A stretch of DNA of 64,000 bases, taken from Flaccisagitta enflata (lineage: Eukaryota). The notes beneath the pieces are model-generated. The model made no database searches. It worked only from the letters and a program-made list of their open reading frames with translations, and was not told the DNA's origin. How positions within the stretch are numbered: the stretch's first letter is position 1; every line of letters starts with the position of its first letter. Positions 586 through 62,277 of this stretch are shown here, piece by piece. The position numbers were made by a program, and so were the translations under genes. The stretch lies in the NCBI GenBank assembly GCA_965153355.1, contig OZ231126.1:34224001-34288000 (forward strand), given 5' to 3'.

Positions 586-910
586 AACAAGGCCAACACC
601 TGTAAGGCGCGTGCCAGACTTGTGATACTCGTGACACAATGTTGGGACACAATGTCGGGACACAGTGACCGGACACAATGTCGGGACACAATATCGGGAC
701 ACTGTCGGAACACAATGTCGGGAAACAATGTCAGGAAACAACATCGGGAAACAATACCGAGACACAATATTGGGACACAATGTGGGGACACAATGTTGGG
801 ACACAATGTCGGGACACAATGTCGGGACACAATGTCAAGAACGCCCGTAAACGCCAAAAAAGCAGTGTCACCGACTGACTGATGGACTGACAGACGGACC
901 GGGTTGTAGA
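586..910 (-). mobile_element. HINE/DINE-1-like element lacking its 5' hairpin, with a central 13-bp array
   Basis: AACAAGGCCAACACCTGTAAGGCGCGTG end; (ACACAATGTCGGG)n at ~631-836; GACY microsatellite then GGGTTGTAGA. Confidence 0.75.
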
Positions 911-1220
911 AAACCACTCTCTTTTTCTCCAAAAAGGAGCCTAACAATCCTAATGAATGATAACCCCATGTACAATGTGACCTTTCCATGGTATTGTAAA
1001 AGGAGACTACTTCCAATTTTGTCAAGTGGTATTTTTTTTTCTTTTGATCTGGTAGAAACCGTGGCTATTTTTTTTTTCTACTAATCTCTTTGTAGTCGAG
1101 TCTAAATGATGCGGTGCCGGTTCCCTGCTGACATTTTTAATCTGTCATGAGCAGATGATATTACAACGACAACTTTTTTGTGCAAAACGATATCTTACAC
1201 AAAGGTGTTTGAGTATACAT

Positions 1221-1408
1221 TTTTTAGTCACGTGCACGCTTAGCTTTTTTTCGTCGTTTTACGCCACTATAAGTCATTTTTAGTCATTTTAAGTTATTTA
1301 AGATTAATTGAAGTCAATTTACATTGAGTCTCTCAGACTTTTGGTCCTTTAGTCTTTTAGTCTTATGGTCTTTACAACCGCACGCGACTGTAAGGTGTTG
1401 GCCTTGTT
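1221..1408 (+). mobile_element. Short, internally deleted HINE-like element
   Basis: TTTTTAGTCACGTGCACGC ... AAGTCATTTT units ... GCACGCGACTGTAAGGTGTTGGCCTTGTT. Confidence 0.75.
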
Positions 1409-1635
1409 TTTCTTCAAACCAAGTTGGCTTTTTGTGTCTCTGATATGCGTTTGGGAACAAACTGAGCAAGGGAAGTACTGCCGAGCGAATAGTGAGTGAA
1501 ACAGTCTTACAAATTTGGTACGTGACTAACAAATGGTAAAATTCACGGAACAATGAAAAACAAAGAAAAAGAAGATGAAAAGACAACAACGTTGTTTGAC
1601 GGTAAATGACACTTTGGCCCGATGATTCACCAGAT

Positions 1636-1834
1636 CAAGGCCGGATACACGGCTACCGAAGTCGCGTGTGGGTGGGCAGGGGCCATATTTGAGGTCACTA
1701 GACCATTTAAGCAATAGCTGTAGGGTCAAAGAAATAAAATCATAAAAAAAGTAAAACGTGACCGACCGACCAACTGACTGACCAACAGACGGACGGACAA
1801 AGCGGGTTGTAGAGTCTCGTGCACGCGACTAAAA
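1636..1834 (-). mobile_element. HINE-like element, ~200-bp GGCCGGATACACGGC subfamily
   Basis: CAAGGCCGGATACACGGC stem-loop, AGTCGCGTG subTIR, GACC/GACG microsatellite, AGTCTCGTGCACGCGACTAAAA; closely similar to 13593-13790. Confidence 0.85.
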
Positions 1835-2294
1835 ATCCATATAATCCAAGTTTTTCATTGCATCGGTGTTGATTGGATGAGCCTGAGCACGGAGAGACTT
1901 TAGCTTAAGGCTTTTTGCAAGGGAGTACGAGGGTTCGACTCATTCTACGCGCCGAGCGTGAACGATATCAGAGGATGAAATTAATAACAGCCTTCACAAA
2001 CATTTCAAAATACACCGGGTTTTGGCAGCCACCGAAGTTTTGTATACACGTTGCAAGTGGCAAAAAAGAACAAAACATAACTATTTACCATGTCATTTGA
2101 AAAAGTATCTGCCACATGAGTCGAGAAAAACCGTCTCCCGCACCGATTAACGATTTGTTTTCTTTTCCATCTTCAAAGTGCGATCACGTAATACTCTTCG
2201 TCCATCCGTATGTCCTCCATTCGCCTTAACAGTAAAGCCTTCCGTCTCCGTCTACGTTTTTGTTTCTGTCTGTCTCTCTTTGTGTGTCTAAGAG

Positions 2295-58751: not shown

Positions 58752-59243
58752 GCGAAATAGATACGTAAAAACGCAGGTATTGTTCGCATAGTCAATCCTG
58801 TCCACTTGTTTTTTCCCGCAAGGGCAAATCTTTAATTCAGGGACACTCGAGCTAAACCATATAAAACCAAACCCACACCTAGCCCTAAATCCTATCCCTA
58901 ATCCAAACCAGATCCCTAACCCTAAACCCCCCCCCCATCCCTAACCCTAACCCCACCCCTAACCGTAAAACATTACCCGCCCAAAAACACTTAGAAATAT
59001 AAGACACGGATTGAGATCGCTAACGAGACCAAAACGGGGTAACAACAATTTATCAAGGAAAACAAACCTTGTATAAGAGGTGACGGTTTTTGATTGACGC
59101 TCGTTTAATCAATAGACTCTCTCTCTCTCTCTCTTTCTATTTCTCTCTCTCTCTCTCTCTCTCTCTCTCTCTCTCTCTCTCTCTCTCTCTCTCTCTCTCT
59201 CTCTCTCTCTCTCTCTCTCTCTCTCTCTCTCTCTCTCTTTTTC

Positions 59244-59388
59244 TTTTTAGTCGTGGACACGCGACTCTATAACCCACTTTTCGGTCCGTCCGTCCGTCCG
59301 TCCATCCGTCCGTCACAAAGTTGTTTTTCGACTTTTTCCGCTCCTGCCCACCCGTCCGCGACTAATGCTGCCGTGTATACAGCCTTGA
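59244..59388 (+). mobile_element. HINE-like element, GTCCGCGACT subfamily
   Basis: TTTTTAGTCGTGGACACGCGACTCTA, (GTCC)n, GTCCGCGACT, GCCGTGTATACAGCCTTG. Confidence 0.85.
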
Positions 59389-59861
59389 TTTCTTTCAATT
59401 CGCACTAATGGCTGGAGATGTCTCTATGTACATCTCATCGGCGATATGATGCCATGATTATTAATTGATGACTGAATTTTTAAATTGGTGGAATTATGTG
59501 AGAATCACTACATCTAGATTTTAAACTTTATGCTTAATGTGTAACGTTGAGCTTAGAGGTCGCAGCTTGGTGCCGCCCGCATTTCACTAATCTTAGACGA
59601 AACCTTGCGCGTTGGTCTTAATGGCTTTGTTCCACTGACAATTCACGACTTTAAAGAACATCACGTCATATCGCACTGAATGTCCTTACTAAGGACATTA
59701 GCACCTACTAAGGACCTTAGCAGCTGTTGCAACGTGCTAAAGCAGCCATTCCATGTTTTTTATACTCTGATACGATGGATAGAAAAAGATAAAAACATAA
59801 CCATCATGAAAGCGGTGGAAATGATTTTAAAATGTCACTAAGGCACAATGCAACGGCTATA

Positions 59862-60010
59862 CAGTTGAGCTTCACAAGAGCGCATACCAAAGGACTGGGA
59901 AAAATCATGCCTTTTAGTGAAGCTGCTAATATAGGAATAACTACAAAATATCTGATGGAACTACAAGTTGTGTGCCTTATAAGTGGGCCTGCCTAAATAG
60001 CGGGTGCGGT
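59862..60010. mobile_element. Truncated relative of the 42465-43304 MITE
   Basis: TA|CAGTTGAGCTTCACAAGAGCGCA matches the reverse complement of that element's right TIR; TGCCTTAT and TAGCGGGTGCG motifs also shared. Confidence 0.6.
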
Positions 60011-61258
60011 CAGGCGGTGCTCCACTACATCCTGATTTCAGTCGATCTAATTTCAGTAAACCATAAGATAATCACTAGTGTATTCCTTTGTGCGTTATGA
60101 GCATTTGGTTCTAAATGTGATTTTCTTCCTCCATTTGTTTGTCTGTTCCTTCATCTAATCATCTCCCATTAGCGTCGTCATTGCCCATCAGCGTCGTCCC
60201 CGCAGTTTCATCATCGCATTCAAACTTGGTATATTATCGTCATCGTCTCGTTCGCGTGATATAAAGTTAGGTCCTTTAGTTGGAAGATGAGGGCAATGAT
60301 GGCGATAGCAGACCCGGTTCACCCAGGTTAATTGTTTGCCCTTTGAGCTCGAGTCTGACCACGGCTGACCTCACCAGCTGAGATAAGTGACTCTCCACGA
60401 GGCATAACTTCCTGTATAAACTCTTTTACTTTACTTCTCTCTCTCTCTCTCTCTCTCTCTCTCTCTCTCTCTCTCTCTCTCTCTCTCTCTCTCTCTCTCT
60501 CTCTCTCTCTCTCTCTCTCTCTCTCTCTCTCATCACATTTTCCAGCATAATATTCACACGGTCGCACACCCATCATCCCCCTACCAACAGTGTATAAGCT
60601 TTCTTATTCATTCTAATCTTTACAACATATACTTTCATTATGTAACTTTTCCTTCTTTCCTCTTTCCTGCGCCATAGACTGATCCAGACACGCGTTCTAA
60701 CGTGACATTTTGAGCTTATAGCGCCACAAAATTGTGCCCTTGTCGTCGATCTAAAATAAAGAACATCCCTATCAGTTCTGTCTTTCTCTGTCTGTCTCTG
60801 TTCGTCTAAATCAGTCTATGTTTGACTCGCTGTTTTGTCTGTATCTGTCTGTACGTCTCTGTCTATCTCTGTCTTTCTCTGTCTATTTTTTTCTCCCTTC
60901 TTATTCTGCCTTAATTCGTGGATCGATGAAGATGGCGCGTCTTTTCTATCATCCAAAAAGGATTTCTCACGCGCCATCCAATAATTCTCTTTCCTTCAAA
61001 AAAGGGAGAAAAAAAAGAAGTTTTCGCAAATGAATGATTCCACTTAATCTGGGCATAAATCATGCGTTCATCACTCGTCAGTTCCCACAAATTACCCTCT
61101 TTAGGCCGCCGACCGCGAAAGATCAAAGAGGCATCGTTTCGCATCTTTCTTGTTTTCTCGCGTCATCGCGTCTTTCGTGTCTTTAGTTTCTTTCTTGTCC
61201 ATCACTTCTTTCATTCGCGTCCTTTGCATATTATGGGTCATTATTATCAAAGTGTGTG

Positions 61259-62277
61259 GAGGGGCGTAGGACAAGGGCATGCAGGGCATGCCATGGCATG
61301 CCCTGTTGTTGGGACACTAAAGTTGTCGGGACACCAATCTCTTCAAGAAAAAAAAAAGAGAAGGGAGAATAAAGGAGAAGGAAGGAGAAGACAACAGAAA
61401 GTAAGAAGAAAAAAAGCAAGAAAAGGACAAAAAAGAGAGAAAAGAGAGAGAGAGAGAGAGAAAGAGAGAGAGAGAGAGAGGTAAAGAGAGAGAAAGAAAC
61501 AGACAGACAAACAGATAGAGGAATTTAAGTTAAAAAGTTGAAGGAAAAAATATTTAAACAGATTAGAGGTAAAAGGAGAAAAACAAAAAAAAAGAGGAAA
61601 GAAAGACTAAGCAGTAAAGACACACTGGCAGATAAACATATAAATGATTGCATTTCTATGTTGGCAAACTAAGGTCACAAATTTCATTGAAAAAAAAAAT
61701 CAAATGAATGCTTCAATTGATTAGTTTGCTAAAAACATGATGCAATAAAATAAAAAAAATTTTATCACAAGTTCTCGTCCATGGGTGTATGGTACTATAG
61801 TTTCAAAAGTCTTGATTTCCCCTTCTATTCAATCTAATCATTTCAAAAATCATCATAAAATGTTTATTTATTAAACAAGCCCAAGCGGGCAACTGGATGC
61901 GTCATCTGCATGATTTTAGAAGAGGCGTAACGGACGGACGGACGGACGGACGGACGGACGGACGGACGGACGGACGGACGGACGGACGGACGGACGGACG
62001 GACGGACGGACGGACGGACAGACGGACGGACCGACGGACGGACAGACCCTCTTATAAAGATGCGATGACGCATCTAAAAAAAATACATGAAGCAATGAAA
62101 ACTTGTTAAAAGACATCTCTTCACTAAACACAATTCTTGTAGCAAACAAAAGTATAGCAATGATTACTGCTGTTCGTAGTTTGTAACCAAAAACCACAAG
62201 TTCAATTGGGACATTAAATTTGTCGGACACCAATTGGGGGTGGCATGCCCTAAACATTCAGCTCTCCTACGCCCCTG
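61259..62277. mobile_element. ~1-kb hAT-like MITE
   Basis: TIRs (G)AGGGGCGTAGGA / TCCTACGCCCCTG; subterminal GGCATGCC and TTGGGACA(C/T)TAAA.TTGTCGG motifs at both ends; flanking 8-mers AGTGTGTG / TGTGTGTG. Confidence 0.75.
61874..62082 (-). mobile_element. HINE-like element, AGATGCG subfamily, nested in the hAT-like MITE
   Basis: AACAAGCCCAAGCGGGC; GATGCGTCATC pairs exactly with terminal GATGACGCATC; long (GACG)n. Confidence 0.9.

What the first reader, a model, noticed from the sequence alone, without database searches (positions are those of the whole stretch)
586..62082. Very dense multi-subfamily HINE/DINE-1-like system acting as a carrier of interchangeable satellites
Seen: about 24 elements (roughly one per 2.7 kb) with one architecture: T-run + AG..CT hairpin, GTCY microsatellite, variable core, distal subTIR, small stem-loop, TTGTT, and no obvious TSD. 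Similar termini enclose different arrays: 13-bp (631-836), 14-bp plus A/C-rich plus 10-bp (8725-10619, 17483-19820), 21-bp plus ATATG (10763-12305) and 10-bp (31699-33353), while other copies are nearly empty (14050-14249). Known: this layout matches Drosophila DINE-1 and other Helentron-associated elements, whose central repeats can seed satellite DNA. Inference: these are probably undescribed families, and they generate much of the tandem DNA here.
Basis: partly seen in the sequence, partly recalled or inferred. Interest (0 to 1): 0.72.

Follow-up and report, generated by a model that had tools for sequence, protein, structure and literature searches.

The report
Satellite-carrying Helentron elements with coding parents
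These repeats are real, very abundant non-coding elements that share their ends with long open-frame rolling-circle (Helentron) transposons in the same genome and are likely copied by them, carrying short tandem arrays along, which is a known kind of system seen here in new families.

Summary
Confirmed: 23 elements plus 3 remnants share a T-run/AG..CT hairpin head, a GTCY microsatellite and a distal inverted copy of the head arm ending CTTGT. At least 53,304 exact heads occur genome-wide; the window is only mildly denser than average. Of 28 hand-picked Rep/helicase loci, 20 carry the same ends around long frames (UCH, Rep, PIF1, AP endonuclease where scanned): 11 sense, 9 antisense. Head arm and distal repeat co-vary (116 of 117). 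There is no non-T duplication; empty sites mostly differ by two Ts, fitting TTTT|T insertion. 91 of 92 sampled arrays have a matching end in fixed orientation. 'Interchangeable' is partly right: arrays stay tied to their neighbouring end, head-side 10-bp arrays already sit in the coding parents, and head and tail halves recombine within one family. These elements hold 43% of the window's tandem DNA but about 10% in a 400-kb sample. All main traits are published for DINE-1, oyster Cg_HINE and Helitron2, and this scan noted similar systems in other genomes. Verdict: new members of a known kind.

The parts
586..931 (-). Family B element with 13-bp array (629-836); head hairpin missing, tail intact
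1229..1406 (+). Family B element, internally deleted head, short core
1633..1835 (-). Short family B element
4355..4440 (-). Decayed remnant (uncertain)
   Evidence: read from sequence
5215..5295 (-). Decayed remnant (uncertain)
   Evidence: read from sequence
6402..6520 (+). Family A-type element (AGGTGCGCC head); head 85% over 59 bp to coding element L081/L082
6557..6680 (-). Family A-type element (AGGTGCGAC head); 81% over 79 bp to L081/L082
8505..8663 (-). Short element with AGTTGCGGAC head and GTCCGCAACT subTIR
8725..10619 (-). Family B element: head, 10-bp and T/G-rich arrays, 14-bp array; tail lost; about 580-bp unrelated insert at 9850-10433. Head region 86% over 186 bp to coding element L085/L086
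10763..12305 (-). Family A-type element with two heads (about 12155 and 12300), ATATG-type expansion and 21-bp array
13593..13790 (-). Short family B element inserted in another repeat; 14 of 14 paralogues fetched are empty at this site
14050..14249 (+). Short family B element with 6 x 10-bp core; 40 of 40 scored genome matches 85-100% identical (one is itself)
17483..19820 (-). Composite family B element: head, 10-bp arrays, T/G-rich array, 14-bp array, tail
19967..20265 (-). Short element, AGTTGCGG-type head
20270..20483 (-). Family B head and core, tail lost
24443..25745 (-). Decayed element interrupted by an inverted-repeat element (about 24600-25690)
30654..30778 (+). Family A-type element, decayed head
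31699..33353 (+). Family B element with TAAGTCATT-type then TAATTATAGG-type 10-bp arrays, inserted in a T-run of another repeat; 14 of 14 paralogues fetched are empty
33567..33884 (-). Element with two heads (AGTCGTGGAC/AGTCGAGGAC) and a duplicated 75-bp tail
38377..38530 (-). Family B tail with decayed head
38757..39052 (-). Family A element (AGATGCGTC); 81% over 194 bp to the head of coding element L067/L068, same tail type
46999..47232 (-). Family B element near the centre of a large foldback repeat; subTIR decayed
50040..50105 (-). Decayed head remnant (uncertain)
   Evidence: read from sequence
58552..58751 (-). Short family B element
59244..59387 (+). Short element, AGTCGTGGAC head and GTCCGCGACT subTIR
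61875..62082 (-). Family A element with expanded GTCC microsatellite; 91% over 107 bp (microsatellite included) to L073/L074

Best explanation
These are non-coding elements that share their ends with two groups of 10-15-kb Rep/helicase/endonuclease-coding Helentrons (HLE2) in the same genome and are likely copied by those proteins through a rolling-circle route into T-runs, carrying their internal arrays as passengers. SHOWN: shared ends; head arm and distal repeat are complementary and co-vary across seven sequence classes; no non-T duplication; the junction sits at a fixed distance from the 5' edge of the T-run; arrays lie between the ends in one orientation; head-side 10-bp arrays are already present in 6 of 8 coding family B copies; the same head module occurs with different tail modules. 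INFERRED: the ends are 5'-TAG..CTTGT-3' inserted at TTTT|T (sequence alone cannot say which Ts belong to the element); the elements arose as internal-deletion derivatives of the coding copies; arrays expand and change in place by slippage; chimeras arise by same-strand self-insertion or template switching, followed by copying from the outer head to the first tail. NOT TESTED: transposition itself, circles, expression.
For: Coding partners: 11 of 28 fetched Rep loci have head AGATGCGTC (10 of 11) and tail GGACGCATC (11 of 11) around a sense frame of 2467-2764 aa. Nine of 28 have head AGTCGCGTG and tail with CACGCGACT on the strand opposite the frame. Homology between two independent copies, L063/64 and L087/88, ends at the head and the tail. 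Domains: UCH, Helitron_like_N, PIF1 and Exo_endo_phos in L067/68 (= L281), L069/70 and L282, plus DUF6570 in two of the three. The last 29 bases of L085/86 are the tail of window elements 17483 and 31699. Covariation: 116 of 117 classifiable elements pair head class with matching tail class; 8.5 of 9 arm positions match against 6.4 for cross-class pairs. Target: 158 of 165 elements lack a non-T duplication (shuffled pairs 156.7); the left T-run is exactly 5 in 125 of 165; 14 of 23 empty-site hits differ by exactly two letters; cut after the fourth T in 67 of 90 long runs against 30 expected. Contig ends from four sequencing runs pile up at 13593 and 14249, and at 14050 in three of the four. 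Arrays: own-family end in the right orientation for 91 of 92 arrays, both ends for 66, reversed control 3. Non-T-plus-TTTTT sites are 1018 on the element strand against 82 on the other.
Against: Identity of window copies to the coding copies is only about 75-93% over short end regions, below the >95% reported for Culex and Drosophila partners (PMC4067079). No coding element with AGGTGCG, AGTCGCGGAC or AGTTGCGG heads was found among 28 of 273 candidates. None of 17 coding copies carries the 13-, 14-, 21-bp or TAATTATAGG arrays in its terminal 1.5 kb, so the origin of the tail-side arrays is not shown. Rep motif 2 reads NYRIEFQxRGAPHAH, which lacks the Helentron serine of PMC4067079. A net gain of two Ts is formally also a TT duplication (ambiguity noted in PMC2374699). 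Four of 23 empty sites gave other values and three were uninformative. The direct test of same-strand nesting in the random sample was inconclusive (3 against 2). The commonest tail type has only a 3-bp stem in my test.
Confidence: 0.9

Rival explanations
1. The arrays are foreign satellite cassettes that are captured and freely swapped between constant termini.
For: 13-, 14- and TAATTATAGG-type arrays share the same last 29 bases and near-identical heads. None of 17 coding copies carries the tail-side arrays. The 13-bp unit has no obvious ancestor in the coding copies. L273 shows a 13-bp tail half joined through unrelated DNA to a head half typical of 14-bp elements.
Against: Each array keeps its own tail-adjacent linker in nearly all complete copies. 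Exchange never crossed the main subTIR classes. Head-side arrays are present in the coding parents with lineage-specific units. Intermediates are visible: the 14-bp unit runs into an 11-bp unit that lacks one CTG, and TAAGTCATTT-type units adjoin TAGGTCATTA/TAGGTAATTA units.
Confidence: 0.15
2. The elements are cut-and-paste MITEs that make a TT target duplication and only resemble Helentron ends.
For: Filled sites carry two more Ts than empty sites in 14 of 23 cases, which a TT duplication would also give.
Against: The inverted repeat is asymmetric (terminal at the head, about 10-25 bases inside at the tail). The only coding elements found with these ends encode Rep/PIF1/endonuclease. The fixed 5-T left run fits the published Helitron2 TTTT|T rule (PMC3627910). 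I did not search for DDE transposases between such ends.
Confidence: 0.04
3. The elements are SINEs or other retroposed copies mobilised by a LINE.
For: Short length, very high copy number and a T/A-rich end. The partner protein contains an AP endonuclease of the LINE type.
Against: No variable TSD; A box in 0 and B box in 3 of 165; no tRNA or Rfam match in the window; paired subTIRs maintained by compensatory change.
Confidence: 0.02

Closest known systems
Drosophila DINE-1 / HINEs (Yang and Barbash 2008, PMC2374699, passages read; Thomas et al. 2014, PMC4067079, abstract, two of three Results parts and passages read)
   Same: subTIRs, partial inverted repeat forming a 5' hairpin, GTCY microsatellite, variable central repeats, 3' stem-loop, T-flanked insertion without other duplication, coding Helentron partners (one with reversed ORF).
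   Different: subTIRs here are about 9-10 bp, not 12-15; 3' stems are 3-5 bp, not 7-11; central units are 9-21 bp, not 50-500; identity to partners is lower; partners carry UCH in the same frame, and no RPA or OTU was detected in those scanned; motif 2 has A where the paper gives S.
Oyster Cg_HINE elements (Vojvoda Zeljko et al. 2020, PMC7492417; abstract, second part of Results, first part of Discussion read)
   Same: Arrays always in one orientation, each array tied to specific flanks, related flanks with unrelated arrays, double arrays in one element, GTCY microsatellites, T-rich targets, no TSD.
   Different: Oyster units are 140-180 bp (the study was limited to 100-500 bp). The authors could not link Cg_HINEs to an autonomous element and left the filler-versus-intrinsic origin open; here partners are linked and already hold the head-side array.
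Helitron2 / HLE2 (Bao and Jurka 2013, PMC3627910; HELIANO, PMC11417382; passages read, HELIANO supplement searched for four terms)
   Same: Asymmetric inverted repeats, 5' hairpin made from the 5' repeat, 3' repeat upstream of a hairpin, 5'-T, insertion between TTTT and T, compensatory mutations, reversed RepHel in some members, DUF6570, UCH and EN as HLE2-type domains.
   Different: Here the cut is phased to the 5' edge of longer T-runs (not found in my searches). UCH and EN lie in one frame. Family B has an extra upstream ORF with an SGNH-like domain, which the HELIANO supplement does not list.
Fusarium FoHeli elements (Chellapan et al. 2016, PMC5148889, passages read)
   Same: Multiple 5' termini with one 3' terminus, reversed ORF in some subgroups, self-insertion model for composites.
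   Different: Different terminal sequences and target (TNAT); no satellite-like cores in the passages read; here up to 18 tandem heads precede a coding element.
texim SGNH hydrolase on fish Helitrons (Tomaszkiewicz et al. 2014, PMC4021074, abstract only)
   Same: An SGNH-type gene carried by a Helitron.
   Different: Here the domain follows a likely coiled-coil and proline-rich region and is only weakly assigned; relation to texim not tested.

Membership tests
HINE / non-autonomous Helentron (HLE2) | Asymmetric subterminal inverted repeats: 5' copy at the end, 3' copy inside | tested here: met
   116 of 117 head/tail classes match; mean 8.5 of 9 complementary; length 9-10 bp, within the 8-15 of PMC3627910 but under the 12-15 of PMC4067079
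HINE / non-autonomous Helentron (HLE2) | 5' hairpin formed from the 5' repeat | tested here: met
   Folded in 3 of 3 heads; z -3.7, -3.6, -0.9
HINE / non-autonomous Helentron (HLE2) | 3' stem-loop downstream of the 3' repeat | tested here: inconclusive
   Stem of at least 4 bp in 9 of 15 tail types against a shuffled mean of 1.2, maximum 5; the commonest type has 3 bp and folding energies are not significant
HINE / non-autonomous Helentron (HLE2) | Insertion between Ts, no target duplication | tested here: met
   158 of 165 without non-T TSD, as in shuffles; net +2 T at 14 of 23 empty sites; a TT duplication cannot be excluded formally
HINE / non-autonomous Helentron (HLE2) | No coding capacity | tested here: met
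   Frames of 130 aa or more over these elements are mostly low-complexity read-through of arrays, judged by eye; 41 of 43 complete copies in the sample are under 720 bp
HINE / non-autonomous Helentron (HLE2) | Autonomous partner with the same termini | tested here: met
   20 of 28 fetched Rep loci; met for the AGATGCGTC and AGTCGCGTG classes, not found for the other head classes
DINE-1-like architecture | GTCY microsatellite after the 5' hairpin and variable central repeats | tested here: met
DINE-1-like architecture | Sequence homology to the Drosophila 90-bp core | not tested
   No DINE-1 sequence available from a tool; works like DINE-1, not filed as DINE-1
Helentron (autonomous partners) | Rep + PIF1 helicase + C-terminal AP endonuclease in one frame | tested here: met
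   L281, L282, L069/70
Helentron (autonomous partners) | DUF6570 as HLE2 marker (PMC11417382) | tested here: met
   L068 half E 1.6e-8, L282 E 6.5e-7; not detected in L070 or in whole L281
Helentron (autonomous partners) | Motif 2 signature of PMC4067079: (F/Y)xR before the motif and S between G and P | tested here: not met
   All 20 partners read NYRIEFQ(F/L)RGAPHAH: neither the Helentron S nor the Helitron L; many unnamed relatives also have A
Helentron (autonomous partners) | Phylogenetic grouping with named HLE2 rather than HLE1 | not testable with these tools
   Tree of 52 proteins has no named Repbase references and no HLE1 outgroup
Canonical Helitron (HLE1) | 5'-TC, 3'-CTRR, insertion between A and T | tested here: not met
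   Ends are T-AG and CTTG-T, flanks are T on both sides
tRNA-derived SINE | A/B boxes, variable TSD | tested here: not met
TIR MITE | [quoted passage not shown] | tested here: not met
   3' repeat is internal; partner found is RepHel; DDE partners were not searched for

The most novel reading that the evidence does not exclude
A self-targeting, half-element shuffling system: the T-rich arrays that these Helentrons carry behind their head supply their own strand-specific TTTT|T targets (12 to 1 on the element strand), so copies land inside one another in the same orientation and are re-copied as new head-half/tail-half chimeras. New minisatellites then arise from the transposon's own 10-bp array and not from captured host DNA. 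With apparently intact, recently copied parents (up to 97% identical, with UCH, AP endonuclease and an SGNH-like accessory ORF), this would make the filler-versus-intrinsic origin of HINE satellites and Helentron end recognition directly testable.
Probability: 0.35. Interest if true: 0.5.

Novelty: new member of a known kind. Interest (0 to 1): 0.3.

Why it matters
As annotation, it explains roughly 50,000-170,000 dispersed repeats and several minisatellites of a 794-Mb genome as one class of rolling-circle transposon. For the field, the value is the completeness of the set: non-coding copies, long open-frame parents of both orientations, seven co-varying end classes and a sharp target rule in one genome. 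The oyster study that described the same organisation could not link its elements to parents and left the origin of the arrays open. Here the head-side array is in the parent, which favours an intrinsic origin for at least that array. A specialist would find this useful, not surprising.

Tried and rejected
SINE origin: no tRNA, no Rfam match, no A/B boxes. Rolling-circle concatemer at G000:C1:3.625-3.649 Mb: rejected, because the ten copies share identical host flanks and sit in a tandem repeat of about 737 bp with filled and empty sites, so one insertion was amplified with its host repeat. Eight other long Rep/helicase loci showed none of these ends at their borders in my detectors, and I did not determine their ends; a third element family was not linked to them. 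Same-strand nesting count in the random sample: 3 against 2, no conclusion. Expression: no RNA holder listed. Insertion polymorphism: no contig spanned an element, and the listed joints showed none skipping a whole element (261 joints not shown), no conclusion; head-to-tail joints are present but cannot be told from tandem insertions. Accessory ORF: no solved relative by sequence; the single-sequence model was unusable (pLDDT 39); the alignment-based model had not finished, so no fold search was run. The maximum-likelihood tree timed out and FastTree was used. Literature searches: (Helentron + insertion site + TTTTT) found nothing. Repbase, Dfam, subscription papers and the supplements of all papers except PMC11417382 were not seen and may already hold these families or the target phasing.

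
Full report
OBSERVATION. Reading the whole window gave 23 recognisable elements and 3 remnants, listed with flanks. In element orientation each has a T-run, AG, a short hairpin closing in CT, a CTA(C/T)A linker, a GTCY microsatellite, a variable core, an inverted copy of the left hairpin arm, a short stem-loop and CTTGT. Detectors built from these motifs find 21 heads and 20 tails in the window. 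In 40 evenly spaced 10-kb samples of the genome they find 88 and 55, against 1-5 and 0-2 in five shuffles. Several copies are incomplete or doubled, and 14050-14249 has a short 10-bp core. The window is G000:C1:34224001-34288000 of a 794-Mb assembly in 9 contigs. Two exact head patterns match 31,094 and 22,210 times, with 0 for the reversed controls. A looser detector extrapolates to about 167,000 heads (84 in 400 kb). The window's 21 heads compare with 13.4 per 64 kb, and 7% of resampled draws reach 21.

CODING PARTNERS. PF14214 gave 273 candidates, 150 scored, many in open frames of 2000-3600 aa. I fetched 20 kb around 28 of them, chosen by hand for long frames and a spread of scores, so proportions are not genome estimates. 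Eleven (group A) have a sense frame of 2467-2764 aa between an AGATGCGTC head (10 of 11) and a GGACGCATC tail (11 of 11). Nine (group B) have an AGTCGCGTG head and a CACGCGACT tail on the opposite strand; one is interrupted, and its presumed head lies about 20 kb from its tail. Eight have neither at their borders. The 17 measured elements are 9.8-14.8 kb. Homology between L063/64 and L087/88 stops at the head and the tail. The three partner proteins scanned contain UCH, Rep, PIF1 and a C-terminal AP endonuclease, two also DUF6570. In a FastTree of 52 proteins, A and B each form one side of a branch among the genome's own rows and lie in one clade with unnamed metagenome proteins of 47-65% identity to the group B query. 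The tree has no named references. Copies within a subfamily are 90-97% identical. Window elements match these ends: 8725 to L085/86 at 86% over 186 bp, 38757 to L067/68 at 81% over 194 bp, and the terminal 29 bases of L085/86 recur in 17483 and 31699. Against a simple parent-child reading, identities are modest, parents for four minor head classes were not found, and motif 2 (RGAPHAH) lacks the serine that PMC4067079 gives as diagnostic.

ENDS AND TARGET. I collected 165 complete elements from all loci then held (window, random samples and targeted loci, de-duplicated by flanks). Of 117 with classifiable ends, 116 pair a head class with the matching tail class across seven classes. The tail repeat complements the left arm of the head at 8.5 of 9 positions, against 6.4 for cross-class pairs. 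The 3' stem is at least 4 bp in 9 of 15 tail types (shuffled mean 1.2), but only 3 bp in the commonest type, and it is energetically weak. No non-T duplication is seen in 158 of 165, the same as in shuffled pairs (156.7). The left T-run is exactly five in 125 of 165, and the right run is mostly two or more. Of 23 elements with an empty-site hit, 14 differ by exactly two letters, 2 more do so in one of two paralogues, 4 give other values and 3 are uninformative. This fits ends TAG..CTTGT inserted at TTTT|T, the rule published for Helitron2 (PMC3627910). On that reading the cut follows the fourth T in 67 of 90 runs of six or more, against 30 expected. For window elements 13593 and 31699, 14 of 14 paralogues fetched are empty; run lengths vary among them, and 31699 has lost about 20 bases of left flank. 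Contig ends from four runs pile up at 13593 and 14249, and at 14050 in three of the four. A TT duplication gives the same two-T gain (PMC2374699), so this point rests on the nature of the partner.

ARRAYS. I sampled arrays by their own sequence: the first listed loci in contig order, with overlapping loci and the window's own copy of the 14-bp array dropped. An own-family end in the expected orientation was found for 28 of 28 14-bp, 16 of 16 13-bp, 19 of 19 21-bp and 28 of 29 TAATTATAGG arrays. Both ends were found for 66 of 92, within flanks of about 1.5 kb for most; the reversed control gave 3 of 92. The 13-, 14- and TAATTATAGG arrays share one extreme tail, but each has its own tail-adjacent linker. 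Head-side 10-bp arrays of about 600-700 bp sit directly behind the microsatellite in 6 of 8 coding family B copies, with lineage-specific units; none of 17 coding copies holds the tail-side arrays in its terminal 1.5 kb. Head linkers travel with their head-side array, and such head halves occur with different tail halves: the L085-type head with 13-bp and with 14-bp tails, a second head type mostly with 14-bp tails and once with a 13-bp tail, and the L087-type head once with a 13-bp tail. The 14-bp unit runs into an 11-bp unit that lacks one CTG, and TAAGTCATTT-type units adjoin TAGGTAATTA-type units, which suggests change in place; I saw no such bridge for the 13- and 21-bp units. The ATATG expansion of 10763 is strong in 4 of 21 21-bp loci. 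In the window 6,912 of 16,106 tandem bases lie inside the elements. In the sample, arrays of these unit types are 7,168 of 75,228 tandem bases, and only 2,144 lie inside elements with both ends detected.

MECHANISM. Most likely (0.9) a RepHel protein recognises the paired head arm and tail repeat, copies one strand and joins it at TTTT|T. This step follows from the known behaviour of Helitrons and from the shared ends, and was not tested. Internal deletion of coding copies would give the short elements, and slippage would expand the arrays. Element interiors hold 1018 non-T-plus-TTTTT sites on their own strand and 82 on the other, so insertion into another copy should favour the same orientation. 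Copying from the outer head to the first tail would then give the double heads (10763, 33567), the 4-18 tandem heads of four coding copies and the half-element chimeras. This is the self-insertion model of PMC5148889. My direct count of nested orientation was too small to test it, and template switching at short homologies is an alternative for L244 and L273.

COMPARISON AND NOVELTY. Architecture, GTCY microsatellite and central repeats are those of DINE-1 (PMC2374699) and HINEs (PMC4067079). Fixed array orientation, related flanks with unrelated arrays and double arrays are described for oyster Cg_HINE (PMC7492417) and reviewed in PMC12628747 (passages read). TTTT|T insertion, compensatory changes and reversed ORFs are described for Helitron2 (PMC3627910), multiple 5' ends for FoHeli (PMC5148889), and UCH, EN and DUF6570 as HLE2 domains by HELIANO (PMC11417382). 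An SGNH gene on a Helitron has a fish precedent (PMC4021074, abstract; found through the reference list of PMC7599744). Earlier notes of this scan report similar systems in other genomes and none in this one; they are unchecked leads, and one pointed me to PMC3627910. What I did not find in five searches is the phasing of the cut to the 5' edge of the T-run and a satellite-carrying HINE linked to a parent that holds the same array. Repbase, Dfam, subscription papers and most supplements were out of reach. The elements work like DINE-1 and meet the HLE2 structural definition; they are not shown to be homologous to DINE-1.

VERDICT. Real, well explained, new members of a known kind. Interest 0.3. 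The bolder reading, self-targeted half-element shuffling with arrays born inside the transposon, has probability about 0.35 and would deserve about 0.5.

Noticed in passing
81 fuzzy motif hits in the 400-kb sample, about a dozen of them from family B bodies; its arrays are about 8% of tandem DNA there. Likely another Helitron2-type family; no parent found.
   Followed up: partly
L292:4630-6069 (-), L296:4534-6141 (-) and other family B coding copies: Extra upstream ORF of about 480-535 aa: likely coiled-coil start, proline-rich middle, C-terminal domain with GDS, N and DGxH motifs. Atlas features point to GDSL/SGNH (0.95); 5 of 25 relatives hit PF13472 below cut-off; 93 unnamed relatives. A GDSL-like stretch also begins the RepHel frame of L283 (E 1e-4).
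   Followed up: partly
L069+L070, L071+L072, L075+L076, L079+L080: Coding family A elements are preceded by 4 to 18 tandem head modules, mostly 116-140 bp apart.
   Followed up: partly
G000:C1:3625277-3648671 (L277-L279): One 1.27-kb 14-bp-array element amplified ten times (one copy headless) inside a host tandem repeat of about 737 bp, with filled and empty sites in the same array.
   Followed up: yes
window 45471-48802, 53494-55939, 63234-64000: Large foldback elements with arms of 1.2-1.5 kb and internal repeats; the third is a relative of the second, cut by the window end.
   Followed up: no
window 23203-23618, 35862-36276, 24600-25690, 31201-33429, 9850-10433: Inverted-repeat (MITE-like) elements: two related TA-flanked copies of about 415 bp, one element inside the 24443 copy with TGAT on both sides, the host of the 31699 copy (1015 first-look candidates), and one inside the 8725 copy.
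   Followed up: partly
window 7050-7458, 14738-15597, 21694-22371, 34177-34453, 42130-42464: 81-, 72-, 85-, 14- and 107-bp tandem arrays that lie outside the catalogued elements; an 81-bp array of the same type recurs in L097.
   Followed up: no
G000 genome-wide: 273 first-look Rep candidates, 150 scored, most in open frames over 1500 aa and up to 3632 aa: an unusually large and apparently recent load of coding Helitron-like elements from several lineages.
   Followed up: partly
window 586-931: The head palindrome appears to be deleted, leaving the T-run joined directly to the linker.
   Followed up: no
window 1-64000: No host protein-coding exon was recognised among frames of 130 aa or more; short exons were not looked for.
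   Followed up: no
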